Source: a virus
Virus record (IMG/VR): IMGVR_UViG_3300050120_000156
Location: 7,714-71,713 of that record
Reading direction: 5' to 3' (one strand)
Length of the DNA stretch: 64,000 nt
Below the pieces are notes generated by a model that searched no databases, had not been told where the DNA came from, and saw nothing but the letters and a program-made list of their open reading frames with translations. Each line of letters begins with the position of its first letter. The stretch's first letter is position 1. Position numbers and translations under genes: made by a program. This document shows, in pieces, positions 3,140 through 48,021 of this stretch.

Positions 3140-3369
3140 GCCGCGGCGCGAATCACTGGTCGCCGGACCAGCGCGCAGCGGAGGCCGAGCGGATGCGCTG
3201 GGAAGAACCGGGCTTCCGCGACAAGCAGACGCCGAAGACGCTGCCGATCGACATCCCGTCCAGGGACCGGAAGGCCTACAACGCGGCCTATTACCGGCTG
3301 CGGCGGCAGACCGATCCGGCGTTCGGCTACCAGCCGAAGCGCCAGCAGCAGAGTGAGCAAGGAGACTGA
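3136..3369 (+). CDS. hypothetical basic protein
   Basis: GTGA overlap, codon bias. Confidence 0.6.
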   Translation: MSRGANHWSPDQRAAEAERMRWEEPGFRDKQTPKTLPIDIPSRDRKAYNAAYYRLRRQTDPAFGYQPKRQQQSEQGD

Positions 3370-34995: not shown

Positions 34996-37900
34996 GTGGT
35001 TGGTGCTGTCGACGATCCGGCAAAAGCGGCTTTTGACCGCAACCAGAAATGGGTGAAGCCTGGCGCCGATGGCTTCACGACGGCGCTGGCACCCGACGAC
35101 GAGGCGGCCTATCAGGGTTGGGTGAAGAAGAACAACGTGCCGTGGCGGGACTCGCCGACCGCCGATTACGACATGCGCGGCTTCTGGCAGACCTCGCAGT
35201 ATCCCGCGCAATGGCAGGCGTTGCAGAAGACGGGGAAGATTCCGCCCGACATGGCGCCGTTCGGAACGTCGGTCGATCCGAATGACAGGTTGCCGCACTA
35301 CCCGGATTACTGGAAGACGCCGTATCACGAGACCTTTTCGAACGAGAGCCAGTGGGCGACCCCGGATGCGCCGGCGTGGACCAACACGACGCCGAATAAG
35401 CCCGAGGGGACTGACGCTGATCGGCTCGTCGACCAGGACGGCAACATCCTGTTCGATGACCGTGTCCCGGCCGGCGACTACGGCGATGCCGGCGCCCAGC
35501 GGCAGTACATGGCCGATGGCGGCACACCGGATGACGGAGCGCCCGATGATCTGATGACGCCGCCGCCGGACCTCGTCGCGGCACCGGAGGCCCATGCCGA
35601 CGAGCCGCCGACCGATCTTCTGACGCCGCCGCCGGATCTCATGCCGGCAGCGGCGGCGTCCTCGAGCGAGAAGCCGACGGCAACCGACGCCGCGGCGACC
35701 GAGAAGCCGTCGCTGCTCTCCGAGTTCACCGGGCCGATCTACAATACCGGTCGCGAGGCCGTGATGGGCATCCACAGCCTCGCCAACAGGATGCAAGGCG
35801 CCATCGCCGATACGACCGGCATCGGTGCCGATACGGCCGCCGCCAACACGGCCGCGCTTGCCAAGATGAAGGCCGACAATCCGCCGATGCCGTCGGCGGC
35901 GCCGCCGGTGACGCAAATCGGCTCGCTCGATGATGCCGCCCGCTGGGCCTTCTCGGTGACCGGCAGCGTCGCCGGCGCCGTCGCCCAGCTGGCAACGATG
36001 GGCATCCCGCGCGCCGCGGCGCTGGCCGCGATGGAAGGGTTCGAGGAGACCAAGGAAAAGACCGGCTCGACCGCCTCGGCGCTCGAATCGGCAGGCGTCC
36101 AGGCGGCGGCGCAGGCCGTCCCGCTGCATCTCCTCGGTACCGCGTTCAAGGGTACCGTCCCGGCGATCGCCGGCGCCGCCGCGGGCATGGCCGGCACCAA
36201 CGTCGCCGCCGAGGCGGCGCAGCGCGCCATCGAGGGTGACAAGCCGATGACGGCGGCGGATGCCGCCGACCAGGTCGCGCGCGGCATCGCGATGGGCGTC
36301 ATCCCCGGTGTCGCCGGTCATTTCATGGGGCGCGGCACGCCGACACCGGGCCCCGACGACATCGTCCAGCAGGCGCAGGTGCAGGGCACCAAGGTGCCGT
36401 CGCCCGACGAAGCCAGCCAGATGGCGGCCGATCAGGCGGCGATCCGCGGGCAGGCGTCACCGGCGACCTCGAGCCCGGCACCGCAACCCGGCGATGCGAT
36501 CGGGCTCAAGTTCCCGAAGGGGCCGTCGCAGCGCGCCACCGTCGATCAGTATTTCGACAACGGCCAGTCGGTTCGGGTGCGCTTCGACAACGGGCAGGTG
36601 CAGGATTATCTCACCGCCGATGTTCTCCGCGACCGCGTCGAGCCGCCGCCGCCGATGAACGAAGCCCCGGCGCCGGTCGTCCGGCCGGGAACCGATGTCA
36701 GCCAGGGCGAATCGTTCGACCTCATGATGGAGGGCGAGCGCGCCGCGCAGGCGGCACAGCCGCAGCGGCAGGCCTCGACGCCGACGCTGGGCGGTGCTGC
36801 CGTCCAGGCGTTGCAGCAAGCCGACGCGCTCGAGTTCCGCGCCGCGAACGATCCCAGCCGGACGGCGGAGCAGCGCGCCGACGATTACGCTGCGGCAATG
36901 AACCTGCGCCGCCGCTTCGGTGCCTCGACCGAGGCGCCGGCGTTCAGCGATGACCAACTCGAGCGTGCCGCGCAGCAGCGCGCCGCCGGGCCCGGCACGC
37001 CGATGATGGGGCAGAACGTCCCGCCGATCGATCTGCAGCCGCCGCAGTTCACCGATGAGCAGCTCGGCCGTGCCGCCGTCATCCGCCAGCAGGCGGCGGT
37101 GGCGGCGCAGCAGGCGCGTGATGCCGCGGCCGCAGCTGCAGAGACCAAGCTGAAACAGGATGCCGACAACCCGCCGCGGCGGCCGGCCGATCTCCTCGAC
37201 TTCCTGTCGAAGTCTGGCGGCGTCCGTGACGACACCGGCGACCTCGCCGCGATGGATGCCGGGCTCTGGCACACCAACCAGCCTTTCCGCCGCAAGCTCG
37301 TCAACCCAGATGGCCTCTCGCTGCCGATGGCGTTCGAGAAGGCGAACGAGGCCGGCTACGGGCCCTATCACGATGAAGCGGAATTGCTCGATGCGATCCG
37401 CGACAACCTCGGGTCGACACCGCACTTCTCGGCGGCGGACCTGACGCAGGCGCAGCGCTGGGAAGAGGCGCAGCAGCAGCAGGAGCCGATCCTCGATCAG
37501 TTGCATGCCAGGGCGCACGAGCTCGGGCTCGACATCCCGCCGAATTGGACCGGCCCGGAAATCCTTGCCGAGATCCATGAACGTGAGGGTATGATGGCGG
37601 ACAACGGCAGCGCGGAAGCGTTGGCCGACCGCCAGGAGGCCGAAGACGATGCCTGGCTTCGGGTTGCGCACCCGGATCTTTTCTCGGAGATCCACGATGG
37701 ACGCGCCGACCAAACTGCACAACAGCCAGAACCGGCTCAAGGTCTTGCAGAAGGCCTTCACGGACCGCAACCGGCCGCTGGCGGAGCGGGAGAGCATCCG
37801 GCACCTGCTGCGATCGGCCCGGGCGGCGGTCAAGCTGCGGGTGCGGGCGCTGATGCACAGCCGCAAGGCGTAAGCCGCACCACTCCCGAGCCGGCGTCCG

Positions 37901-40900
37901 ACATCCGGGCGCAGATCTCGGCAATGATGGATCCGGCGACGTCGAAGGACGCCGTCTTTGTTGCCGCCGAGAACGAGGATGCCATCCCCTACGGCTTGCC
38001 GCGCGGCATCATCGCCGTGGCGCGACCGGAAGGCATCCTGCTGACGACGAACCGCGCCAAGGCGGAGCGCTTCCAGGCGTCCGACCTGAACGACAACGAC
38101 ATGGCGCAGCTGCTCGGCTATCCCGAGACGAAGGCCGATGCCGTCGCCAGCGGCCAGCCGGTCGCGATCCAGGGCAAGGATGCCGCCGGCAACGTCGTCG
38201 CCGACGCCGTGGCGTCGCCGCAGCGCGCCGGCGAGACCGCCGCCGCGATCGCCGCGCAGGTGCCGGAGGGTGGCAGCGTCGCGCCGGTATCGCCGGTTGA
38301 GGCGCAGCAGCGGCGGGCCGCGCTGGTCGAGCAGGAGCAAGTGGGTATGATACCCACTTCCCCGGCCGAAACCGTGAACGAACCGGCACCGGAACTCGGC
38401 ACCCGCCACCAGCCGGTCCGCGTCGAGACCGCCGAGGATCTCGCGCACGCCGAGCGCCACGTCAACACGGAGCCCAGCGAAGCGCAGATCGAGGCCGGCA
38501 ACTACGCCAAGGGCCACCTCAAGCTGCACGGGCTCGACATCACGATCGAAAATCCGAAGGGCTCCATCCGCCGCGGCGTTGGGCCGGACGGCAAGCCCTG
38601 GGAAGTCGAGATGCCCGCTGCCTACGGCTACATCCGTAGGACCGAGGGTGCCGACGGCGATCATGTCGACGCCTATATCGGTCCCGACCCGAGGAGCGAC
38701 CGCGTCTTCCTGATCGACCAGCATGAGCCCGGCGGCGGCAAGTTCGACGAGCACAAGGTGATGGCTGGCTTCCCGGATGCCGCCTCTGCGTTCGACACCT
38801 ATCACCGTGCCTTCAGCGACGGCAGCGGTCCGGAGCGCATGGGCCACGTCGCCGAGATGTCGGTCGACCAGTTCAAGGACTGGCTGAAGCGCGGCGACAC
38901 AACGGCGCCGGCGCGCGAGGCGGTCAACCCCGCCAATCCGATGGAGCTCCACGAGGTCAAGCACACCAAGACGGGAGCCGATCTCTTCGCGGTGCGCCTG
39001 GTCGACCGCGTCGAGGGCGATCATTTCAAGGTGCTGTCTCAGGCGGCGAAGAAGCTCGGTGGCTATTACTCGTCGTTCCGCGGCAAGGGTGCGGTGCCGG
39101 GCTGGCAGTTCAAGACGCGCGAGGCCGCCGAGCAGTTCATGCGCGACAACGGCGGCGGCCTGGCGGAGCGCCCCGGCGCGAAGGTGGCGACGCCGGCCGA
39201 GAAGATCGGCCGCATCGCCGACCTGCAAACGGAGCGCGGCGCCGAGGCGCGGGGTGACCGCGTCGCCGGCTCGCCGGCGCAGTCATTCGCGGCGATCGAG
39301 GCGGCGGGGCGCAAGCCTTGGGAGATGTCGCGGCAGGAATTCATCGACGCGCACCGCGATGCCTTCGTTCGAGCAGAGGGAGCCAAGCAGATCGCCGGCG
39401 TGCAGTCGAGGGATGGCTCGACGATGTGGCCGCTCCGCCCAGGCGATCAGACGAGCGGCGGAAAGCTGCTGCGGTCGCCGGAAGAGATCCTTGGACGCAT
39501 CCACGACGAAGGGGTTGCCGGTCACAACGCTGTGGTCGAGCGCGGTAAGTTGCCGAATGCGCTGCCGCATGAGCGGGCAGCGGCAGAGGCGGCGCAGCGC
39601 GAGCCGCCGCCGTGGGTGACATCGACGACGCCAGAGGGCAAGCGCCAACTCGCTGTTGCGGCTGGCTTCTCGCCATCTCAGGCCGTGAGCCTCTCCAAGA
39701 TCGGTTGGCCCAACCTCACGCCGGAAGAAGCCGCGCGGATGACGGCGCAGTGGCGCAAGGGCGACATCCAGGCACGGTGGGAAGACGAGCGCAAGGCCGC
39801 GATCGGATCGGTCGGCCAGAACGCCGCCGGCCGGGATCTGTTCGAGGATGATCGCGGTGTGCGGTCCTATGTGCTGAACGGGGTGCGGCGGACCGAGCCG
39901 GTCGGCATCGTTCCAGGCCGCGGCATCACGATCGACCCGTCGCGCCGCGGCGACGAGTTCAGTACGACCGAGGAGCGCGGCGCCGCCGCACCGGCGCAAG
40001 GGGACTTGCTGAACCAAGCGCCGCGCGCGACCTCGACGGAAGAAGAGCCCCACCAGATTGTCGCCGGGCCGTCGGCGGATGGCTCAAAGGGCACAGAGCC
40101 GACCGGCAAGAATGCTGGCGAGAAGATCATCCAAGATGCCGGGGAAAAGATCGGTGGCGCGCGGAAGGATCGATGGGCAGAACGTGGTCTCGCTCTGAGC
40201 GACCTTGATGGGATGACTGGCGGCGAAGAGGCGAAATACGTCACCAAGGATGCTGTCTGGCCGAAACCGGATTATGCCGCTCTCGTCGAAAATGGGATGG
40301 AGCCAGAAGCTGCCGCCCTGCTGAAAATCATCCGCGACCGCCTCGCCGCGAAGCCATCAAAGGACACGCCGCAGGGGCGGCGCGACTTCGTCGAGACGAT
40401 GGGCAACATCAAGACCGCCTTCGAATCGGCGAAGACGGCAGCGGATATCAAGTCCGCGCGCGATGCCGTGCTTTACGACAAGATCGGGCTTCCGAAGGAT
40501 CGTTACGGCCGCGGTGCGCCGGAGCAGCGCGACAAGCTGTTCTCGGTCATCAAGGGCCGCACCGAGAATCTTTGGGCCGACAACGACGATGTCCGCAAAG
40601 CGCAGGCGATGGTTCGCCAGGGCTTCCCAGGGGAGCCGGAGCAGCCGTGGTTGAAAGACCACGAGATCATCGAGGCTAGTGGCCGCGCGACGTTGCGGCG
40701 CAACGGCAAGTTCGTTCAGAGTTTTCCAGACAAGGCGGCGGCCGAGGCTTACCTCAAGGATCGTTATGACGCGCGACGGTCCGGCAATGGCGCTGCCGGT
40801 AAGGTGCCGGAGCGCCCGCATCTCGACAATCTCGACCGGAGCGGCCCGGATAATCGCAACGGCAGAGATGTTGCCGGAGAGGATTTTGTCAAGGATTTCG

Positions 40901-43900
40901 GCTTCCGCGGTGTCGAGTTCGGAAACTGGGTCGCCGGCGACGAGCGTCAGAAGTCGGTCAATCTCGCCTACGATGCCTTGCACGACCTGGCGCATGCCGT
41001 CGGCATCCCGCCCGAGGCACTCAGTCTCGACGGAAAATTGTCGCTTGCGTTCGGTGCGCGTGGCACCGGCCGCGCGGCGGCGCACTACGAGCCGGGAAAA
41101 CTCGTCATCAACATGACGAAGCTGTCAGGTGCCGGCTCGCTGGCGCACGAATGGGGCCATGCGCTCGACCATTATTTCGGCGAGATGGGACGCCCCGACG
41201 CTTACGAGGGCGCCGCTCGCGGTGCATCGGGCTGGTACGATCAGCAGGATTATAGCGGGAAACCGCGCCAGCGCTTCGACCGCGCGACGGGCAAAGCCAT
41301 CACGGAGACGCGGCTTGCCCATCTCCGTCCCGAGATGGCACAGGCCTTCGACACGGTGATGTCGACGCTGTTCAAGCGCCAGAAGGATCGCGCCGAGGCT
41401 GTGCGCGATGCGGAGTTGAGGCTCGAGGAGATCAAGGGCGGCATCGAGCAGCAGAAGCAGCGTGTCGCAGCGTCGCGCGCGCGCCTTGATGCTGCCGACA
41501 GCGGCACGACCGACAAGTCGCATGGGAAATTCGCCAAGGACAGCGCGGCGTGGATCTCCGAACAGGAACGCCGCCTTGATGTTGCGCAGCGCCGGCTGGC
41601 CGATCTGCGGGGCGATGGGCCAGTGTCGTTGCCGCAAGTCGATTCGTCCTATTACGAAAATGCCCGGCGCCTGTCCGGCAAAACTGGTGCTCAAGGCTAT
41701 TGGGCGCGGCCGACAGAGATGTTCGCCAGGGCTTTCGAGGCGCACGTCTTCGACAAGATGAAGGAGACTGGGACGAAGAGCGACTACCTCGTCCACGGTG
41801 TCGAGGGTGACCGCTACGCTTCCGATCTCTACAAGGGAAATCCCTATCCGACCGCCGCCGAGCGGACAGCTATCAATGCCGCGTTCGACGAACTCACCAA
41901 ATCGATCAGGGTGCGTCCTGGCGAAAGTGGGAACGAGACCATGTTCCAGCGGGCGCCGGCACCGGCTCCGGGCTTCTATTCGGCGCTGGAGCGCGGCGTC
42001 GAGGCAGCGCAGCAGGAGCGTGCGCCGGCGGCGACCTGGAAGGGCTTCATCCGCAACCTCGCCGGCAAGGGCGTCAAGCAGGACGAAATCGAGTGGTCCG
42101 GCGTCAACGACTGGCTCGACACGCAAAAGGGCGTCATCTCCAAGGCCGATGTCCTCGAGCATCTCCGGCAGAACGATGTCGGCTTGCAGGAGGTCATGAA
42201 GGGGCCGGACTCAGCGGATGAAGGTGGCTGGACGCATGTCCCGGCGCGCACCACCAAGTTCGATGAATACACGCTGCCCGGCGGCGAGAACTATCGCGAG
42301 ATGCTGCTGACCCTGCCGGAAAGCGCGGCGCTGCGGTCGCGCCGGACGGTCTTCAACCGCTACGCGCCGGAGATAGCCAAGCAGCAGCGCCTCATCGACG
42401 ACCCGCTGCTGACGCGCGAGGAGCGCGCTGCGGCGCGCACCGAGATGGATCGCGTCATTGCCGAGCGCGACGACAAGGCCGATCGCATCGCCGGGAGCTC
42501 GCCGGATTTCCGGTCGCCGCATTTCGAGGAGCCGAACGTTCTGGCGCATATCCGGATGGCCGATCATACCGACGCCGAGGGCAAGAAGACGCTGCTGCTC
42601 GAGGAGGTGCAATCCGACTGGCACCAGCAGGGGCGTCGCAAGGGCTACGTCGGCGCGAAACCGGAACTGCCGGAGGGCGTCGAGATCCGGCCGGTCGGCC
42701 GCGAGTTCGGATACTTCGTCGATGGCCGCGACACCGGGCTGCGGGCGCCGACGGCACAGCGCGCCGCCGAGGACTATCAGTCGCTGCACGGTGGTCAGGA
42801 GCCGGCTGGCGGTGTCCCCAACGCGCCGTTCAAGTCGACGTGGCAAGAACTCGCCATGAAACGGATGCTGCGATACGCGGCTGAAAACGGCTACGACAAA
42901 TTGGCGTGGACCCGTGGAGAAACGCAGGCGGACCGCTACGATCTGTCGAAGCGGGTCAGCGAGATTTGGGCAAAGCCGGTCGGCGGCGACAGGTTCGAGA
43001 TGACCGTCACCGGTCATGACGGGGTGCCGATCTACGATACGGCCCGCACGGGGGCTGTCCGGGCTGCCGAACTAGAAAACGTCGTCGGCAAGGAGATGGC
43101 GCAGAAGATCATTGACCATGCGGCGGCGAACCCCAGCGCGCCGGCCGAATTCTCCGGCCTCGACCTCAAGGTCGGCGGCGAGGGCATGCAGGCATTCTAC
43201 GACAAGATGCTGCCGTCCTTCGTCAACAAGTATGCGAAGAAATGGGGTGCCAAGGTCGGCGAGTCCGAGATCAACTCCGGCACGCGGAAATACTCCGGGC
43301 CGGAGCCGACCGAGGATGCCATCGACAAGGTCGACCGCTGGATCGAGCACCGCGAAGGCGACCCGATGGTCAACCCGCTGACCGGTGCCCGCCAGATCTT
43401 CGGAGTCGACAACGTCTCGACGCGCCGCGCATGGGATGAGGTGATGCATGCCCATGCCGTTGGGGGGCTCGACTTTGCGGAGGCGCTGAACCGGCACGGC
43501 ACCCCGGAAATCACCGATATTTTCGGTGGCAAGACGATGCACGAGGAGCCCACGACGGAGCGTGTCCACTCCGTCGACATCACGCCGCAGATGCGTGACA
43601 GCGTCATGGGCGGCCAGCCCCTGTTCCAGCGCGGTGCCGAGGGTGACCGCGCCGGCGAGATGACGCCGGTGACCCGCGGGCTCGAGGGCGAGGCGCGGCC
43701 GTCCGAGGCTTACACGGCACACGAGGCGGAGATCGCCGGTCAGTTCCGCGGCATCGTCGAGAAGATGTTCCCTGGTGCCGAGGGGCGCGTCTTCGGCAAG
43801 CTGCGCGCCACCGCCGAGAGCGGCGAGGCCGGGCAGGTGTTCGGTGCCTACCATCGCGACCGCGCCGGCGACATGATGCAGCACGTCATCGCCGGCTCGC

Positions 43901-46900
43901 TCGAGATGACCGATCCCAAGGGAACGGCACGTCACGAGGGTTTCCATTACGTGCTGCGCTCCGGGATTCTCCGTCCGGAAGAGGACCGTGTCCTCGACGA
44001 GGCGGCCGAGCGTAACGGCTGGGTCGATGCCGGGATCAAGCGCGATTACGGCCACCTGCCGGAGCGGCAGCAGCTCGAGGAGGCGAAAGCCGAGGCCTAT
44101 CGCAAATGGGCGGCCGATCGCGCCGGCTTCGCCAAGAGCCTGCCGGCACCGGTACAGGCTATCTTCCAGAAGATCGACCTGCTGATGCGCCGCGTCGCGG
44201 CGATGGCGCGGCAGGTGCTCGGCAAGGATGCGACGGCGGACGATGTCTTCGGCCGGATCGAATCGGGCGAGGTCGGGCGTCGCGCGCTCGAGGGGCAGAC
44301 CGAGACCGAGCCGCAGGTGCCGTGGGTCACCGAACAGGATCTCGACAAGCTGCAGGGTGCCTTCGGCACCGGCTCGCCGCAGTTCCGTGAGGCGCTCGAT
44401 GCCTATGACCGCCAGCAGCCGAGTTCGGAACTGACATCGAACGATTACCCGAGGCTCAACACGTTGGCCGGCATGCACGCCGCCGAGGCGGAGAGCACCG
44501 GCCGCGAGGGCATCGCGATGCCGCCGGCCGATGCCTACGAGGCAGCGCAGGCCCAGCAGCGGCTGGCACGCCCGCCGGCGAACGACCGCGACGCAGCGGC
44601 GTTGCAGCGGCGTCCGTTCGAGCAAAGCCCGGAGTTCCGGCGCTGGTTCGCCGGCAGCGCCATCGTCGACCAGGATGGCCGTCCGAAGATGGTCTACCAC
44701 GGCACCGATGCCGAGGATTTTCAGACGTTCGACCGCTCCGACGACATCGGCTTCCATTTCGCCGATCAGCCGGAGGTCGCGGATACGCGGTTGCAGCAGA
44801 TGGGCGCGCATGATGCCGATGCCGAGGGCTCGCCGCGCGTCATCCCGGCTTACCTGTCTATCAAGAACCCGTTGCGCCTGTCGGATCTCCATACCTGGGA
44901 TCCCCGCGCCGTCATCAATGAGTTGCACGACCGCGGGCTGCTGACCGATGCCGAGGCGCTGGGCGATCACGTCGTCGACCGCGAATTCGTCAAGGACGCG
45001 CTCGATCGCCATGGCTACGACGGCATCGTCTACAAGAACGAGACCGAAGGGGGCGGCGACAGCTACATCGCGCTGGATCCGCGCCAGATCAAGTCGCCCT
45101 ACAACGACTTCAAGCCGGGCACGGCCGGCGACACTGCCTTCCAGCGGGTGCCGCGCGACGAGCAGCCGGAGGTGGCGCCGACCGGCCAGGATTATCTCGA
45201 TGACGTCAGCGACCAGATCGCCGAGACGGTGCACGGGCAGGGTGCCGGCACCTATGCCAGGCGCCTCGCGCGCTCGCTGCCCGATGCCGGCGCGCCGCTC
45301 GGCACCAAGATGCTCGGCACCTACGAAAAGTTCGTCATCCAGCCGCGCACCCTGGCGGCGACGGACTGGCGATCGGCGCGCTACTGGGATGCGTGGCGCC
45401 GCAAGGACACGACGATGAACGGGCTCCGCCACGACTGGGCGGATCAGAGCAAGAGCTATGTCGCCCTGTCCTCGGCGCAGCGCCGGCAGCTTGCTGCGGT
45501 CGAGGAGATCGACCGCGTCACCGGCACCGTCCGGCCGAACGATGGTCGCCGCGTCGTCGCCCGCAACGAGCGCGACGCCGAGGCCGAGTTCTCGAAACCC
45601 GGCCAGATGATCGCCTTGGACCCGGCGACGACGGCGGCCTATCACGATCGGCGGGCGCTGTTCGGGCAGGTCTGGCACACGATGATGGAGGCCTCGGCGA
45701 AGCGGCTCGGCTGGGATGGCCCGGTCGATGCCGATGCGATCCGTGAGGCGGCGAAGAAGCCGATGCTGCCGGCCGGCGAGGCGAAGCGCCTCAACGGCAT
45801 CGCCGATCTGGTACAGGCGATGGCGGCGCAGGAGCAGACCGGCTACTCGCCGCTGATGCGGTTCGGCGATTATTACATCGCGGTCAAGCCGAAGGAGGGC
45901 ACCGAACCGGATTCGCTGGGTGGCTTCCCGGAGACGAAGCGGTTCGAGCTCGTCGACAGCCGGGCGCCGTTCGACACGCTCTTCGGCAAGACGATCAAGG
46001 AGGGTGATGCGGTGCCGGCGGCGGCGGCGAAGCGGATCGCCGAGCTCCAGGCCAAGTACGGGCCGGATTTCGACATCGAGCACGGCTATCTGGCGCGCAA
46101 CGCCGAGGCGCTCCGCAAGCTCGACATCCCGGCGATCGAGAAGATGTTCGTCGCATTGGGCCAGAAGGACAGCGAGCTCTTCGGGCCGATGGTCGAGCAG
46201 CTGCGCGACAAGATGTACGAGGAGCTCAAGGCCGGCTTCAAGAAGCGGGCCCGCACCGTCCCGGGCTATTCGACCGACTGGGACCGCGCCACCGGCGCCT
46301 ACCTCGGCTGGACCTCCGGCAACGCCGCCGAGATGCTGCACGGCGACGAGATCCGCCAGGCGCAGGAAGCCTATGTCGATCGCCACCCCGACAAGGCGGT
46401 GCAGCGCTATTGGCAGAAATGGGCCGAATATCAGAAAGACCCTGCCGAGGAGATGCAGAAGCTGCGGCAGTTCGGCTTCTACTGGGCGCTCGCCGGCAAC
46501 CCGTCCTCGATGGCACTGATCGCGACGCATGGCCCGATGGTGGCGCATGCGACGCTCGGCGCCGGCGGCGGCTTCGTGGAAGCTGGCCGGCACCTCTACG
46601 GCGCGCTCGGCGAGGCGATCAAGCACATCGGCTTCGACACCGAGCACGGGCTGCACATCAACCTCGACGCGCTCGGCAAGACGCCGGCCGAGAAGGCGTT
46701 GCTGGCGCAGATGGTGAAGGGCGGCCAGTTGCATGAGGCGGCGTCCGACGACATCCGCGGCCTCGGTCAGAACACCATGGAATCGCTGGAACCGGTGCGG
46801 CAGACCTGGAAGAAGATGCTGAACATCGCGGCCTCGACCGTCGGCGTCACCGACCAGATGAACCGCGCCGGCGTCGCGCTGGCGTCGTACCGGCTGGCGC

Positions 46901-48021
46901 AGGACCCGGCGCAGCTTGCCCGCATCGCCAAGACCTGGGGCGGCAACGAGATCTTCCGCGAGATGACGAAGCGTGACGGGCTCAACCCTGAGACGGTCGC
47001 CAAGTTCATGGTCGACGAAGGGCTCTTCGTCTGGGGCAAGCACAACCGGGCGCCGATCCAGCGCGGCACCGCTGGGACGATGCTGTTCCAGTTCCGCAAT
47101 TTCGAGGCGAACTATCTCGGGACGCTGTGGAAGATGATGCACCGCATGGGCCCGGAGGGGAAAGGTGCCGCGGTCTTCATGCTCGGCGGCCTCGGCGTCC
47201 TCGGCGGTGCGATGGGGTTGCCGTTCTCGCAGGATCTCGAGAATGCCGGCGATGCCCTCGGCAAGGTCGTCACCGGCATCGACCCGCAGATCGGCGCCAA
47301 GCTGGCCAGCCTGCTCGAGGATAGCGGCTTCTCGCAGATGGGTGCCGAGATGCTGCTGCGCGGACCGTCGCGCGCCGCGCTCGGGATCGATCTCACCAGC
47401 CGGCTCGGCATGGGCGAGGCGGCGACGCGCAACCTGACGCCGACCGAGGCGCTCGGGGTGGTGCCGTCGATGCTCTACGGGAGGCTTTCAGCGGCCTGGA
47501 ACCGGCTCAACCATGCACAGCCGCTGGGTGCCACGGCCGAGCTTCTGCCGTCGGCGGCGCGCAATTTGATGCGCGGGACGATGGTCTATCCGAATGAGGG
47601 CGTCCGGACGGTGGCGAAGGGCAATGTCGTCGTCCCACCGAACAAGATCACGACCGGCGAACGCGTCGCCCAGTCTCTCGGTTTCGAGCCGGCAAATGTG
47701 GCGCGGGCCTACGAGGAGCGTGAATACGGCTATCGCACGGCGAATGCTGGGCAGGAGCGCCATTCCCGGGTTCTGAGCCAGGCGACGGAGCTTATCTCGC
47801 AGGCGGCCGATGCGCAGAAGGCCGGCGATGCCAATGGTGCGCAGGCGGCGAAAGATAGTTTGGCTGCCCTTCTCAAGGCAAATCCGGATCAGCACATCAC
47901 GCCAAAGGCGATCGAGGCGCAGATCATGGCGCGGGAAAACGCGCAGGCGGCGGCGCTGAAGCATGCACCAAAGGGCGCCAAGGCGGCGATCATGGGCAGC
48001 CCGTTCGTGCCGCCGCAATGA
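34996..48021 (+). CDS. giant polyvalent virion protein (InPase, LPD5, LPD1, zincin MPTase, ART-PolyVal, PLxRFG domains)
   Basis: GNYAKGH..IENPKGS..YGYI..TEGADGDHVD (~38460-38900); GEKIGGARKD (~40140); FRGVEFGNW..LAFGARG..AHYEP..LAHEWGHALD (HEWGH at 41146)..EMFARAFE; HEGFH (43933); FRRWF...YHGT...YLSIKNP...GYDGI...QIKS (~44620-45100); PLMRFG (45850). Confidence 0.9.
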   Translation: MVGAVDDPAKAAFDRNQKWVKPGADGFTTALAPDDEAAYQGWVKKNNVPWRDSPTADYDMRGFWQTSQYPAQWQALQKTGKIPPDMAPFGTSVDPNDRLPHYPDYWKTPYHETFSNESQWATPDAPAWTNTTPNKPEGTDADRLVDQDGNILFDDRVPAGDYGDAGAQRQYMADGGTPDDGAPDDLMTPPPDLVAAPEAHADEPPTDLLTPPPDLMPAAAASSSEKPTATDAAATEKPSLLSEFTGPIYNTGREAVMGIHSLANRMQGAIADTTGIGADTAAANTAALAKMKADNPPMPSAAPPVTQIGSLDDAARWAFSVTGSVAGAVAQLATMGIPRAAALAAMEGFEETKEKTGSTASALESAGVQAAAQAVPLHLLGTAFKGTVPAIAGAAAGMAGTNVAAEAAQRAIEGDKPMTAADAADQVARGIAMGVIPGVAGHFMGRGTPTPGPDDIVQQAQVQGTKVPSPDEASQMAADQAAIRGQASPATSSPAPQPGDAIGLKFPKGPSQRATVDQYFDNGQSVRVRFDNGQVQDYLTADVLRDRVEPPPPMNEAPAPVVRPGTDVSQGESFDLMMEGERAAQAAQPQRQASTPTLGGAAVQALQQADALEFRAANDPSRTAEQRADDYAAAMNLRRRFGASTEAPAFSDDQLERAAQQRAAGPGTPMMGQNVPPIDLQPPQFTDEQLGRAAVIRQQAAVAAQQARDAAAAAAETKLKQDADNPPRRPADLLDFLSKSGGVRDDTGDLAAMDAGLWHTNQPFRRKLVNPDGLSLPMAFEKANEAGYGPYHDEAELLDAIRDNLGSTPHFSAADLTQAQRWEEAQQQQEPILDQLHARAHELGLDIPPNWTGPEILAEIHEREGMMADNGSAEALADRQEAEDDAWLRVAHPDLFSEIHDGRADQTAQQPEPAQGLAEGLHGPQPAAGGAGEHPAPAAIGPGGGQAAGAGADAQPQGVSRTTPEPASDIRAQISAMMDPATSKDAVFVAAENEDAIPYGLPRGIIAVARPEGILLTTNRAKAERFQASDLNDNDMAQLLGYPETKADAVASGQPVAIQGKDAAGNVVADAVASPQRAGETAAAIAAQVPEGGSVAPVSPVEAQQRRAALVEQEQVGMIPTSPAETVNEPAPELGTRHQPVRVETAEDLAHAERHVNTEPSEAQIEAGNYAKGHLKLHGLDITIENPKGSIRRGVGPDGKPWEVEMPAAYGYIRRTEGADGDHVDAYIGPDPRSDRVFLIDQHEPGGGKFDEHKVMAGFPDAASAFDTYHRAFSDGSGPERMGHVAEMSVDQFKDWLKRGDTTAPAREAVNPANPMELHEVKHTKTGADLFAVRLVDRVEGDHFKVLSQAAKKLGGYYSSFRGKGAVPGWQFKTREAAEQFMRDNGGGLAERPGAKVATPAEKIGRIADLQTERGAEARGDRVAGSPAQSFAAIEAAGRKPWEMSRQEFIDAHRDAFVRAEGAKQIAGVQSRDGSTMWPLRPGDQTSGGKLLRSPEEILGRIHDEGVAGHNAVVERGKLPNALPHERAAAEAAQREPPPWVTSTTPEGKRQLAVAAGFSPSQAVSLSKIGWPNLTPEEAARMTAQWRKGDIQARWEDERKAAIGSVGQNAAGRDLFEDDRGVRSYVLNGVRRTEPVGIVPGRGITIDPSRRGDEFSTTEERGAAAPAQGDLLNQAPRATSTEEEPHQIVAGPSADGSKGTEPTGKNAGEKIIQDAGEKIGGARKDRWAERGLALSDLDGMTGGEEAKYVTKDAVWPKPDYAALVENGMEPEAAALLKIIRDRLAAKPSKDTPQGRRDFVETMGNIKTAFESAKTAADIKSARDAVLYDKIGLPKDRYGRGAPEQRDKLFSVIKGRTENLWADNDDVRKAQAMVRQGFPGEPEQPWLKDHEIIEASGRATLRRNGKFVQSFPDKAAAEAYLKDRYDARRSGNGAAGKVPERPHLDNLDRSGPDNRNGRDVAGEDFVKDFGFRGVEFGNWVAGDERQKSVNLAYDALHDLAHAVGIPPEALSLDGKLSLAFGARGTGRAAAHYEPGKLVINMTKLSGAGSLAHEWGHALDHYFGEMGRPDAYEGAARGASGWYDQQDYSGKPRQRFDRATGKAITETRLAHLRPEMAQAFDTVMSTLFKRQKDRAEAVRDAELRLEEIKGGIEQQKQRVAASRARLDAADSGTTDKSHGKFAKDSAAWISEQERRLDVAQRRLADLRGDGPVSLPQVDSSYYENARRLSGKTGAQGYWARPTEMFARAFEAHVFDKMKETGTKSDYLVHGVEGDRYASDLYKGNPYPTAAERTAINAAFDELTKSIRVRPGESGNETMFQRAPAPAPGFYSALERGVEAAQQERAPAATWKGFIRNLAGKGVKQDEIEWSGVNDWLDTQKGVISKADVLEHLRQNDVGLQEVMKGPDSADEGGWTHVPARTTKFDEYTLPGGENYREMLLTLPESAALRSRRTVFNRYAPEIAKQQRLIDDPLLTREERAAARTEMDRVIAERDDKADRIAGSSPDFRSPHFEEPNVLAHIRMADHTDAEGKKTLLLEEVQSDWHQQGRRKGYVGAKPELPEGVEIRPVGREFGYFVDGRDTGLRAPTAQRAAEDYQSLHGGQEPAGGVPNAPFKSTWQELAMKRMLRYAAENGYDKLAWTRGETQADRYDLSKRVSEIWAKPVGGDRFEMTVTGHDGVPIYDTARTGAVRAAELENVVGKEMAQKIIDHAAANPSAPAEFSGLDLKVGGEGMQAFYDKMLPSFVNKYAKKWGAKVGESEINSGTRKYSGPEPTEDAIDKVDRWIEHREGDPMVNPLTGARQIFGVDNVSTRRAWDEVMHAHAVGGLDFAEALNRHGTPEITDIFGGKTMHEEPTTERVHSVDITPQMRDSVMGGQPLFQRGAEGDRAGEMTPVTRGLEGEARPSEAYTAHEAEIAGQFRGIVEKMFPGAEGRVFGKLRATAESGEAGQVFGAYHRDRAGDMMQHVIAGSLEMTDPKGTARHEGFHYVLRSGILRPEEDRVLDEAAERNGWVDAGIKRDYGHLPERQQLEEAKAEAYRKWAADRAGFAKSLPAPVQAIFQKIDLLMRRVAAMARQVLGKDATADDVFGRIESGEVGRRALEGQTETEPQVPWVTEQDLDKLQGAFGTGSPQFREALDAYDRQQPSSELTSNDYPRLNTLAGMHAAEAESTGREGIAMPPADAYEAAQAQQRLARPPANDRDAAALQRRPFEQSPEFRRWFAGSAIVDQDGRPKMVYHGTDAEDFQTFDRSDDIGFHFADQPEVADTRLQQMGAHDADAEGSPRVIPAYLSIKNPLRLSDLHTWDPRAVINELHDRGLLTDAEALGDHVVDREFVKDALDRHGYDGIVYKNETEGGGDSYIALDPRQIKSPYNDFKPGTAGDTAFQRVPRDEQPEVAPTGQDYLDDVSDQIAETVHGQGAGTYARRLARSLPDAGAPLGTKMLGTYEKFVIQPRTLAATDWRSARYWDAWRRKDTTMNGLRHDWADQSKSYVALSSAQRRQLAAVEEIDRVTGTVRPNDGRRVVARNERDAEAEFSKPGQMIALDPATTAAYHDRRALFGQVWHTMMEASAKRLGWDGPVDADAIREAAKKPMLPAGEAKRLNGIADLVQAMAAQEQTGYSPLMRFGDYYIAVKPKEGTEPDSLGGFPETKRFELVDSRAPFDTLFGKTIKEGDAVPAAAAKRIAELQAKYGPDFDIEHGYLARNAEALRKLDIPAIEKMFVALGQKDSELFGPMVEQLRDKMYEELKAGFKKRARTVPGYSTDWDRATGAYLGWTSGNAAEMLHGDEIRQAQEAYVDRHPDKAVQRYWQKWAEYQKDPAEEMQKLRQFGFYWALAGNPSSMALIATHGPMVAHATLGAGGGFVEAGRHLYGALGEAIKHIGFDTEHGLHINLDALGKTPAEKALLAQMVKGGQLHEAASDDIRGLGQNTMESLEPVRQTWKKMLNIAASTVGVTDQMNRAGVALASYRLAQDPAQLARIAKTWGGNEIFREMTKRDGLNPETVAKFMVDEGLFVWGKHNRAPIQRGTAGTMLFQFRNFEANYLGTLWKMMHRMGPEGKGAAVFMLGGLGVLGGAMGLPFSQDLENAGDALGKVVTGIDPQIGAKLASLLEDSGFSQMGAEMLLRGPSRAALGIDLTSRLGMGEAATRNLTPTEALGVVPSMLYGRLSAAWNRLNHAQPLGATAELLPSAARNLMRGTMVYPNEGVRTVAKGNVVVPPNKITTGERVAQSLGFEPANVARAYEEREYGYRTANAGQERHSRVLSQATELISQAADAQKAGDANGAQAAKDSLAALLKANPDQHITPKAIEAQIMARENAQAAALKHAPKGAKAAIMGSPFVPPQ
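37697..37873 (+). CDS. nested out-of-frame small basic protein (58 aa) inside the giant gene
   Basis: GGAG SD at 37686-37689; 56 of 58 codons end in G/C while the host frame falls to 26 of 58 over the same stretch. Confidence 0.6.
   Translation: MDAPTKLHNSQNRLKVLQKAFTDRNRPLAERESIRHLLRSARAAVKLRVRALMHSRKA

What the first reader, a model, noticed from the sequence alone, without database searches (positions are those of the whole stretch)
37686..37873. Hidden 58-aa gene overprinted in the +1 frame inside the 13-kb polyvalent gene
Seen: GGAG-N7-ATG at 37697 opens MDAPTKLHNSQNRLKVLQKAFTDRNRPLAERESIRHLLRSARAAVKLRVRALMHSRKA*. By hand count 56 of 58 codons end in G/C, while the host frame drops to 26 of 58 and reads as a low-complexity linker (DGRADQTAQQPEPAQGLAEG..). 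The codon bias therefore switches frame exactly over this ORF. Inference: a real nested gene encoding a basic amphipathic helical peptide, possibly an inhibitor or chaperone for a neighbouring toxic domain during virion assembly, or a nucleic-acid binder. Standard gene callers would miss it.
Basis: partly seen in the sequence, partly recalled or inferred. Interest (0 to 1): 0.7.

Follow-up and report, generated by a model that had tools for sequence, protein, structure and literature searches.

The report
Small gene nested in phage giant gene
A 58-codon reading frame hidden inside a 13-kb phage gene carries the sequence marks of a real small gene, and the giant protein seems to read through it in another frame to make a flexible linker; nested genes are known in phages, and what this one does is unknown.

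Summary
GGAG-N7-ATG at 37697 opens a 58-aa +1-frame ORF ending at TAA 37873, inside a 4341-aa polyvalent-protein gene. 56 of 58 nested codons end in G/C, against 26 of 59 host codons. This is the lowest host GC3 in the whole gene. No other +1-frame stretch of the gene comes near its codon-usage score (0 of 4149).

The ORF exactly fills the gap between two host domains. Its stop overlaps the first conserved codon of the downstream domain.

Two metagenomic relatives about 9-10% diverged show no listed indel here. One encodes the peptide at 91% identity, with the last 36 residues unchanged. Listed substitutions in the ORF are 0 of 5 host-synonymous, against 26 of 35 in the flanks.

Best reading (about 0.6): a real, internally initiated small gene for a very basic helical hairpin. 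Codon usage suggests it is the older frame and the host's Ala/Gly/Pro/Gln linker the younger read-through frame.

There is no expression data, no homologue outside this small clade and no assigned function. The main rival is an untranslated relic. This is a new member of a known kind, of moderate interest.

The parts
34996..48021 (+). Host gene: 4341-aa polyvalent protein, one open frame with no stop
   Evidence: ORF list and translation. Pfam hits: InPase at residues 1162-1298 (E 3e-51), LPD1 at 2232-2304 (E 1e-21), ART-PolyVal at 3225-3368 (E 1e-16).
37177..37695 (+). Host domain A, acidic, last globular region before the overlap. Host-frame coding signal holds up to 37695.
   Evidence: 43% identical to residues about 1041-1225 of P0003. 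Its N-terminal part recurs inside large ORFs in L028 and L029. Codon blocks favour the host frame up to 37695.
37634..37651 (+). Alternative upstream start: AGGAGG-N9-ATG (ATG 37649) in the same +1 frame, giving a 74-aa form. Less likely than 37697.
   Evidence: One of 6 AGGAGG in the gene. The 16 codons 37649-37696 score -8.6 in +1 against +6.6 in the host frame. The one change seen there in P0019 (F to C) can be made by a host-synonymous change, CTT to CTG; this is inferred from the window codons, and the relative's DNA was not seen.
37686..37689 (+). Shine-Dalgarno-like GGAG, 7 nt before ATG 37697
   Evidence: GGAG-N5-9-ATG occurs only 3 times in the 13,026-nt gene.
37697..37873 (+). Nested +1-frame gene: 58 codons plus TAA. 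Product is 6.8 kDa, pI 12, a two-helix hairpin.
   Evidence: GC3 56 of 58. Codon score +17.8, unique among +1 windows. P0019 is 91% identical. AlphaFold2 pLDDT 85.
37696..37869 (+). Host-frame linker (DGRADQTAQQPEPAQG...AQPQG): the shadow-frame reading of the nested gene
   Evidence: GC by host codon position 0.95/0.65/0.47. Host codon score -5.6, below every other host window. All 5 listed substitutions here change the host residue.
37870..38334 (+). Host domain B (VSRTTPEPASDI...). Its first conserved codon GTA overlaps the nested TAA.
   Evidence: Alignments to all 16 homologues P0003-P0018 become conserved at the TPEP motif, and in most from the V codon itself. The domain starts a separate gene in L006/L008, L019 and L020. 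AlphaFold2 pLDDT 70, no PDB fold match.

Best explanation
The 58-codon +1-frame ORF at 37697-37873 is a real small gene. It is translated by internal initiation at its own GGAG-N7-ATG, on the same late mRNA as the polyvalent-protein gene. Its product is a 6.8-kDa, strongly basic (pI 12) helix-turn-helix-shaped hairpin.

Ribosomes translating the 13-kb host frame read the same 177 nt one base out of phase. That frame starts each codon on the small gene's G/C-rich third position, so it holds almost no stop codons and yields Ala/Gly/Pro/Gln/Glu codons. This gives a disordered linker joining domain A to domain B.

The codon-usage asymmetry suggests that the small gene is the older frame and the linker is the overprinted, younger one. 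The likely origin is fusion of once-separate module genes across a small intervening gene; in other phages domain B starts a gene of its own right after the stop of an upstream +1-frame gene.

What is shown:
- the frame switch;
- the start and stop signals at the domain boundaries;
- persistence of the arrangement in relatives;
- a substitution pattern that favours the nested frame.

What is inferred:
- translation of the ORF;
- the direction of overprinting;
- the fusion history.

Function is a guess from charge and shape only: binding of nucleic acid or of an acidic partner, co-expressed with the polyvalent protein. I give that guess 0.3 or less.
For: 1. Coding signature.
- GC3 is 56 of 58 in the nested frame against 26 of 59 in the host frame.
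- This is the lowest host GC3 of the whole gene, exactly at codon 899, with binomial P 1e-11.
- The nested codon log-odds score is +17.8. It sits at the 10th percentile of true-frame windows and is reached by 0 of 4149 other +1 windows.
- Minus-strand frames score lower (best +2.8).

2. Signals at the boundaries.
- The switch falls at 37696, in 8-codon blocks.
- GGAG-N7-ATG sits there, one of only 3 such motifs in 13 kb.
- The TAA overlaps the first conserved codon of domain B.

3. Relatives.
- phmmer over 1.84 billion representatives finds a 74-aa protein, P0019, 91% identical (E 5e-24). It comes from a 2567-nt assembly contig.
- A 2567-nt contig in run X3 (76 differences in 872 nt) and a 15,417-nt contig in run X4 (128 differences in 1309 nt) cover the region.
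- No indel is listed between 37438 and 38046.
- P0019 differs at 5 of 58 residues, all within residues 8-22. The last 36 residues are identical.
- Of the 5 substitutions listed inside the ORF, 0 are host-synonymous and 2 are nested-synonymous (codons 31 and 39). In the flanks 26 of 35 are host-synonymous. Fisher P is 0.003.

4. The product is modelled as two confident helices (pLDDT 85.1).

5. Context.
- In L006/L008, L019 and L020, domain B begins a gene whose ATG overlaps, as ATGA, a stop in the +1 frame. In L006/L008 and L020 that stop ends a small ORF with coding-type codon-position GC; in L019 it stands just after the TGA of an upstream 144-aa gene in the other frame.
- The shadow frame of a real gene is open in 1866 of 4115 59-codon windows, so read-through is easy.

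6. Ancestral frames have codon usage closer to the genome's than de novo frames do (PMC3744397, abstract).
Against: - There is no expression evidence of any kind.
- No homologue exists outside this small clade. The only other phmmer hit, P0020, is a TPR-like repeat protein matched in 9 stretches, which I take as chance. There is no paralogue in the 71.7-kb record.
- There is no family, fold or Atlas match.
- At 58 aa and 10 of 58 Arg, the composition is partly what off-frame GC-rich DNA gives.
- The selection argument rests on an incomplete view of the relatives. Only 40 substitution rows were printed (201 further rows and 3 indel rows were not), and the host-frame sequence of the relatives was not seen.
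- That the X3 contig encodes P0019 is inferred.
- In the last third of the ORF the two frames score about equally.
- The host linker aligns to the linker that follows the homologous domain in P0003 slightly better than composition predicts (score 77 against 56.7 +/- 8.0; 1.95% of 2000 shuffles reach it). If that homology is real, it argues that the host frame is old too.
- Short compensated indel pairs occur elsewhere in this gene in the relatives, so frame-shifted patches do arise here.
Confidence: 0.6

Rival explanations
1. Untranslated relic. The stretch used to be read in what is now the +1 frame, either as an in-frame helical segment or as the C-terminal tail of a former gene A. A +1/-1 indel pair, or a fusion event, in the common ancestor of the window and its relatives moved it out of phase. 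The codon signature has not yet decayed, and nothing is made from the +1 frame now.
For: - A phase-shifted codon signature is what a young compensated frameshift leaves.
- A single missing base before GTA would join ...SRKA to VSRTTPEP in one frame (read from the sequence; inference).
- Short +1/-1 indel pairs are listed elsewhere in this gene in the relatives: 37424/37437, 38047/38055, 38078/38083.
- There is no homologue and no function for the peptide.
Against: - An SD plus ATG exactly at the switch would be a coincidence (3 such motifs in 13 kb).
- A stop exactly at the domain B boundary would be a second coincidence.
- The frame relation is already shared by relatives 9-10% diverged. Since then the last 36 +1-frame residues are unchanged in P0019, while the 2 substitutions listed in that part are +1-synonymous and host-nonsynonymous. 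(1-p)^36 is 0.023 to 2e-7 for per-codon change rates of 0.10 to 0.35 (the rates are my assumptions).
- No larger protein among 1.84 billion representatives carries the peptide in frame.
Confidence: 0.22
2. Programmed +1 ribosomal frameshift near 37690-37699. Some ribosomes translating the host frame slip into the +1 frame and stop at TAA 37873. This makes a truncated 900-aa N-terminal protein with a basic helical tail, alongside the full-length protein.
For: - The +1 frame is coding-like and ends at a module boundary.
- A CTT-TTC run and a hairpin lie just upstream.
Against: - No known +1 shift site is present. There is no stop or rare codon after CTT, and no long homopolymer.
- +1-frame codon quality is bad up to 37695 (-9.2 for block 37672), so a shift would have to occur within a few nt of the ATG.
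- The hairpin is not exceptional: z -1.4, and 1 terminator-like site against 0.5 +/- 0.7 expected.
- An SD plus ATG at the spot makes independent initiation the simpler reading.
Confidence: 0.06
3. The 13-kb ORF is not one gene here. Gene A, the small gene and gene B are separate, and the open host frame across the small gene is an annotation or assembly artefact.
For: - Domain B is a separate gene start in L006/L008, L019 and L020.
- A gene caller reported the 74-aa ORF as a gene on the related contig.
- Shadow frames are often open.
Against: - The host frame has no stop anywhere from 34996 to 48021, so gene A has nowhere to terminate.
- There is no host-frame start between 37697 and ATG 37926, yet the conserved domain begins at 37870.
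- No indel is listed in this stretch in contigs from two other studies.
- 16 homologues carry domain B internally.
Confidence: 0.06
4. Chance or composition. A low-complexity Ala/Gly/Pro/Gln linker happens to give an open, GC3-rich +1 frame with no biological meaning.
For: - G/C-initial host codons force a high +1 GC3.
- 35% of 59-codon +1 windows are open.
- Similar linkers precede domain B in homologues.
Against: - This does not explain host GC3 of 0.45 (P 1e-11) or the nested codon score (0 of 4149).
- The 8 distinct loci with an internal domain B keep normal host GC3 in their linkers: 0.58-0.95 against 0.62-0.93 downstream.
- It does not explain the SD and ATG, or the conservation in relatives.
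Confidence: 0.04

Closest known systems
Lambda Rz/Rz1 embedded spanin genes
   Same: A small gene lies wholly inside a larger phage gene, on the same strand, in the +1 frame, with its own start. Both products are made from one mRNA. The +1 embedding is recalled from memory. The papers PMC5295617 and PMC6139136 were seen only as search listings with the start of the abstract.
   Different: Rz1 is a secreted lipoprotein that partners its host protein in lysis. Here the product is a basic cytoplasmic-type helical hairpin with no lipobox or signal peptide. The host is a virion-type polyvalent protein, the overlap lies in an interdomain linker, and no interaction is shown.
Overprinted (same-strand overlapping) genes of viruses, for example phiX174 B/K/E and those covered in reviews of overprinting
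   Same: Two frames of one DNA stretch both code. One frame gives a disordered or low-complexity product. A codon-usage asymmetry tells the older frame from the younger one (PMC3744397, abstract read; PMC8227390, listing only; the phiX174 examples are recalled).
   Different: By codon usage, the younger frame here appears to be part of the large gene (its linker), not the small ORF. The likely origin is gene fusion by read-through rather than birth of a new small ORF.
Polyvalent proteins of phages and conjugative elements (Pfam LPD, InPase and ART-PolyVal domain sets)
   Same: The host gene carries InPase, LPD1 and ART-PolyVal domains joined by low-complexity linkers. Homologues shuffle the same modules.
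   Different: I found no report of a gene nested in such a protein. The one search for 'polyvalent protein' plus 'overlapping gene' found 1 paper, a phage genome description seen only as a listing. Linkers before domain B in 8 distinct homologous loci show no second coding frame.
Arginine-rich helical RNA binders (lambda N, HIV Rev N-terminal hairpin)
   Same: A short, very basic helical or helix-loop-helix peptide. The Rev N-terminal domain appears among the non-significant Foldseek rows (E 4.1).
   Different: This is a resemblance of shape and charge only. There is no significant structural or sequence match and no RNA target is known. The comparison is recalled knowledge and serves as a lead, not a test.

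Membership tests
Embedded same-strand overlapping gene (Rz1-in-Rz type) | ORF lies wholly within another gene, same strand, different frame | tested here: met
   37697-37873 lies at offset +1 inside 34996-48021.
Embedded same-strand overlapping gene (Rz1-in-Rz type) | Own ribosome-binding site and start codon | tested here: met
   GGAG-N7-ATG, one of 3 such motifs in the gene. This is a sequence motif only; its use has not been shown.
Embedded same-strand overlapping gene (Rz1-in-Rz type) | Coding-type codon usage in the embedded frame | tested here: met
   Score +17.8, reached by 0 of 4149 other +1 windows. GC3 56 of 58.
Embedded same-strand overlapping gene (Rz1-in-Rz type) | Purifying selection on the embedded frame in relatives | tested here: inconclusive
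   P0019 is identical at 53 of 58 residues, with the last 36 unchanged. Of the 5 listed substitutions, 2 are nested-synonymous and 0 host-synonymous, against 26 of 35 host-synonymous in the flanks. The full sequences of the relatives were not obtainable (closed; 201 rows hidden).
Embedded same-strand overlapping gene (Rz1-in-Rz type) | Product detected (translation or protein) | not testable with these tools
   This needs ribosome profiling or mass spectrometry of an infected host. The host is unknown, because the record is a metagenomic virus.
Polyvalent protein (host gene) | Several effector-type domains typical of polyvalent proteins in one giant ORF | tested here: met
   InPase 173 bits, LPD1 76.8 bits and ART-PolyVal 62.4 bits, all above the curated cut-offs.
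Programmed +1 frameshift (prfB type) | Shift-prone codon followed by a slow or stop codon, with an upstream SD at short spacing | tested here: not met
   No in-frame stop or rare codon follows CTT at 37681-37686. The +1 codon score is negative until 37696.
Pfam DUF7610 / PHROG 22996 | Score above the family threshold | tested here: not met
   DUF7610 scores 14.7 bits against a cut-off of 27, and only for the 74-aa form. phrog_22996 has E 0.081.

The most novel reading that the evidence does not exclude
A giant phage polyvalent protein gained one of its interdomain linkers by fusing two module genes across a pre-existing small gene. The small gene still works, started from its own SD and ATG. 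Its GC3-rich sequence, read one base out of phase, supplies a stop-free Ala/Gly/Pro/Gln linker. If so, shadow-frame read-through in high-GC phages is a ready route to gene fusion that costs nothing, and small functional genes may lie hidden in the linkers of other giant phage proteins.
Probability: 0.35. Interest if true: 0.6.

Novelty: new member of a known kind. Interest (0 to 1): 0.45.

Why it matters
If the small gene is real, standard annotation of giant phage genes misses products encoded in their linkers. The case would also show a simple way for high-GC phages to fuse module genes without deleting what lies between them. It offers a clean test system: one base change (T37698C) removes the nested start while leaving the host protein unchanged. 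The peptide has no relatives outside its small clade, so any function found would be new. The general phenomenon of nested genes in phages is long known.

Tried and rejected
**Searches for relatives that gave nothing useful**
- The search for related loci with the host stretch 37096-38400 in viral contigs found none.
- tblastn of the same stretch against 50,697 phage records gave no match.
- The peptide P0019 in viral contigs gave 4 loci, L001-L004. All are chance matches of one 8-residue word in low-GC phages.
- The peptide alignment A1 in metagenome contigs and genome contigs found none. The patterns the tool chose there lay partly outside the coding part of the ORF.
- Domain A alignment A3 in genome contigs found none.
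- The search for homologous proteins with domain A ('longer') and with host residues 803-1113 ('near') found none.
- tblastn of host residues 1-958 against loci L005-L026 gave no hit at 1e-3.

**Function searches for the peptide, all blank**
- Pfam, PHROGs, NCBIfam and PADLOC.
- ESM Atlas: best score 0.82, below the 0.9 lead level.
- Foldseek against the PDB: 0 matches at E <= 0.001.
- Domain B model against the PDB: 0 matches at E <= 0.001.

**Other attempts**
- The small ORFs that precede domain B in L006, L008 and L020 are not similar to the nested peptide. The best BLASTP hit has E 0.052 and falls in a non-coding part.
- Complex prediction with domain A, domain B and the peptide as partner gave no verdict. 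The median score was 0.60, but one control scored 0.41. This is neither support for nor evidence against binding.
- The look-up of sequencing runs listed no RNA holder, so nothing can be said on expression.
- The promoter scan found 0 promoter-like sites and 1 terminator-like hairpin (37658-37676), against 0.5 +/- 0.7 expected. The fold of 37630-37720 has z -1.4. I attach no meaning to either.
- The 74-aa form starting at ATG 37649 was considered and ranked second.
- A second out-of-frame SD-led ORF at 47165 (90 aa) is junk by codon score, -98.

**Rows dropped**
- L025 and L026 were left out of the linker survey, because their matches begin inside the domain at a contig end.
- L017 and L024 are the same contigs as L005 and L010. 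L008 printed identically to L006.
Full report
**What is there.** The window comes from a 71.7-kb metagenomic virus record with 65.6% G+C. ORF 34996-48021 is open for 4341 codons. At 37686 a GGAG is followed after 7 nt by ATG 37697.

**Is the frame switch real?** Yes.
- The gene as a whole has G+C of 0.70/0.49/0.84 at codon positions 1/2/3.
- Over the ORF this pattern appears in the +1 frame (0.67/0.45/0.97; 56 of 58 codons end in G/C). The host frame falls to 26 of 59.
- Across all 58-codon windows of the gene, the host GC3 minimum (0.448, against mean 0.838 and sd 0.079) lies exactly at codon 899, the nested start. The binomial P is 1e-11.
- A codon log-odds score trained on the rest of the gene and its upstream neighbour gives the nested frame +17.8. 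That is the 10th percentile of true-frame windows, and 0 of 4149 other +1 windows reach it (their maximum is -15.2).
- The host frame scores -5.6 here, lower than any of its other 4149 windows. It is still better than ordinary off-frames, which average -62.
- In 8-codon blocks the host frame wins up to 37695 and the +1 frame from 37696. In the last third the two are about equal.
- Antisense frames score lower.
- Openness alone means little: 35% of 59-codon +1 windows are open.

**Boundaries.**
- The 16 large homologues found (P0003-P0018) align to the host only from VSRTTPEPASDI onward. Upstream they have unalignable linkers of varying length.
- The V codon GTA (37870-37872) overlaps the nested TAA.
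- Upstream, host-frame homology to P0003 (43% over domain A) runs to about 37690.
- The ORF therefore fills exactly the gap between two modules, with an SD and ATG at one edge and a stop at the other.
- GGAG-N5-9-ATG occurs only 3 times in the gene.
- A second candidate start, AGGAGG-N9-ATG at 37649, exists. The 16 codons after it favour the host frame (+6.6 against -8.6), so 37697 is the better start.

**Relatives.**
- phmmer of the peptide against 1.84 billion representatives gave 2 hits. P0019 is 74 aa, 91% identical, E 5e-24. P0020 is a TPR-like repeat protein that I regard as chance.
- The look-up of sequencing runs listed 13 runs from 7 studies. One of them is the probable source.
- Laying four of these runs showed two useful contigs. 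A 2567-nt contig in X3 covers 37465-38336 with 76 differences and 2 gaps. A 15,417-nt contig in X4 covers 37004-38312 with 128 differences and 6 gaps.
- The printed indels are short +1/-1 pairs at 37424/37437, 38047/38055, 38078/38083 and 38230-38243. None is listed between 37438 and 38046, though 3 indel rows were not printed.
- So the two-frame arrangement is not an assembly error of this record. It predates about 9-10% divergence.
- P0019 differs from the window peptide at 5 of 58 residues, all between residues 8 and 22. The last 36 residues are identical.
- Of the 40 printed substitution rows, 35 lie in the flanks. There 27 fall on host position 3 and 26 are host-synonymous.
- The other 5 lie inside the ORF. 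None is host-synonymous, and 2 (codons 31 and 39) are nested-synonymous. Fisher P is 0.003.
- This favours selection on the nested frame, but the view is incomplete because 201 rows were not printed.

**Is it general?** No.
- In 20 loci carrying domain B (17 distinct; L025 and L026 were dropped as truncated), the 8 distinct loci with an internal domain keep normal host GC3 in the preceding 180 nt (0.58-0.95).
- Seven of those 8 have a +1 stop within the last 60 codons. In the eighth, L011, the +1 frame is open but shows no coding-type pattern.
- The nested peptide hits none of the 16 homologous proteins (best E 0.12).
- In L006/L008, L019 and L020, domain B starts a gene. Its ATG, 4 codons before the V, overlaps a +1-frame stop as ATGA. 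In L006/L008 and L020 an AAGGAG lies inside the end of the upstream +1-frame ORF.
- By eye, in the printout, L012, L014, L018 and L021-L023 also have the coding signal in another frame, or host-frame stops, upstream of the domain.
- The junction at V959 is thus a place where genes meet in other phages, with the same +1 frame relation in several of them.

**Reading.**
- The simplest account is a functioning small gene over which the host frame reads.
- Each host codon here starts on a nested third position, which is 97% G/C. The host frame therefore cannot easily hold a stop, and it spells Ala/Gly/Pro/Gln/Glu/Asp, which is what a linker needs.
- Such shadow frames are open in 45% of 59-codon windows of this gene.
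- By the codon-usage criterion of Pavesi et al. (PMC3744397, abstract), the nested frame is the older one and the linker the younger.
- One caution: the host linker aligns to the linker after domain A of P0003 a little better than shuffles do (1.95% of 2000 shuffles reach its score).

**Product.**
- The peptide is 6.8 kDa, pI 12.0, with net charge +10.8.
- AlphaFold2 without an alignment gives two helices, 3-21 and 28-57, at pLDDT 85.1.
- No family, defence-model, Atlas or PDB fold match was found.
- Function therefore stays a guess from charge and shape: binding of nucleic acid or of an acidic partner.

**Rivals.**
- An untranslated relic of a compensated frameshift or fusion explains the codon phase. 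It does not explain the SD and ATG at the edge, the stop at the domain boundary, or the unchanged 36 residues in a diverged relative.
- A programmed +1 frameshift lacks a shift site, and +1 codon quality is poor until the ATG.
- Separate genes are excluded in this sequence, because the host frame has no stop.
- Pure composition fails on the host GC3 drop and on the comparison with other linkers.

**Verdict.** This is most likely a real nested small gene (about 0.6), a new member of the known class of same-strand overlapping phage genes. Its function is unknown and there is no expression evidence.

Noticed in passing
L006 3975-4001; L020 1472-1498; L019 990-1016: Domain B (V[ST]PSTPEP...) is the start of a separate gene in these phage contigs. 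Its ATG overlaps a +1-frame stop as ATGA. In L006/L008 and L020 an AAGGAG lies inside the end of the upstream +1-frame ORF. In L006 the domain gene is only about 160 aa long.
   Followed up: partly
window 38336-38395: The related 2567-nt contig of run X3 has 736 other letters in place of 58 nt here. This is a module-sized insertion or replacement inside the polyvalent gene between close relatives (table 5).
   Followed up: no
window 37424/37437, 38047/38055, 38078/38083, 38230-38243: The related contigs show short pairs of one base put in and one left out, 5-13 nt apart. These are small compensated frame-shifted patches, or alignment slips, within the same gene (table 4).
   Followed up: no
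window 37658-37685: A terminator-like hairpin with a T-rich tail lies just before the nested SD, inside the 13-kb gene. It is not above shuffled expectation (1 found against 0.5 +/- 0.7; fold z -1.4).
   Followed up: yes
window 40036-40360, 40711-40897, 41560-41734: Three further stretches of the host gene have lowered host GC3 (minima 0.57, 0.62 and 0.64), but the pattern does not move to another frame.
   Followed up: no
window 37870-38334: Domain B is conserved in at least 16 large phage proteins and 20 contigs, yet it has no Pfam, PHROG, NCBIfam or PADLOC match and no PDB fold match. The AlphaFold2 model has pLDDT 70 and is mixed alpha/beta.
   Followed up: partly
window 37177-37430; L028 3001-3330; L029 3001-3168: The N-terminal part of domain A (P.DLL.FL...GG..D..G(D/E)L.A.D ... 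A.E.A.EAGY) recurs inside large ORFs of unrelated phage contigs, including one of 39% G+C. It has no Pfam match in the host protein.
   Followed up: partly
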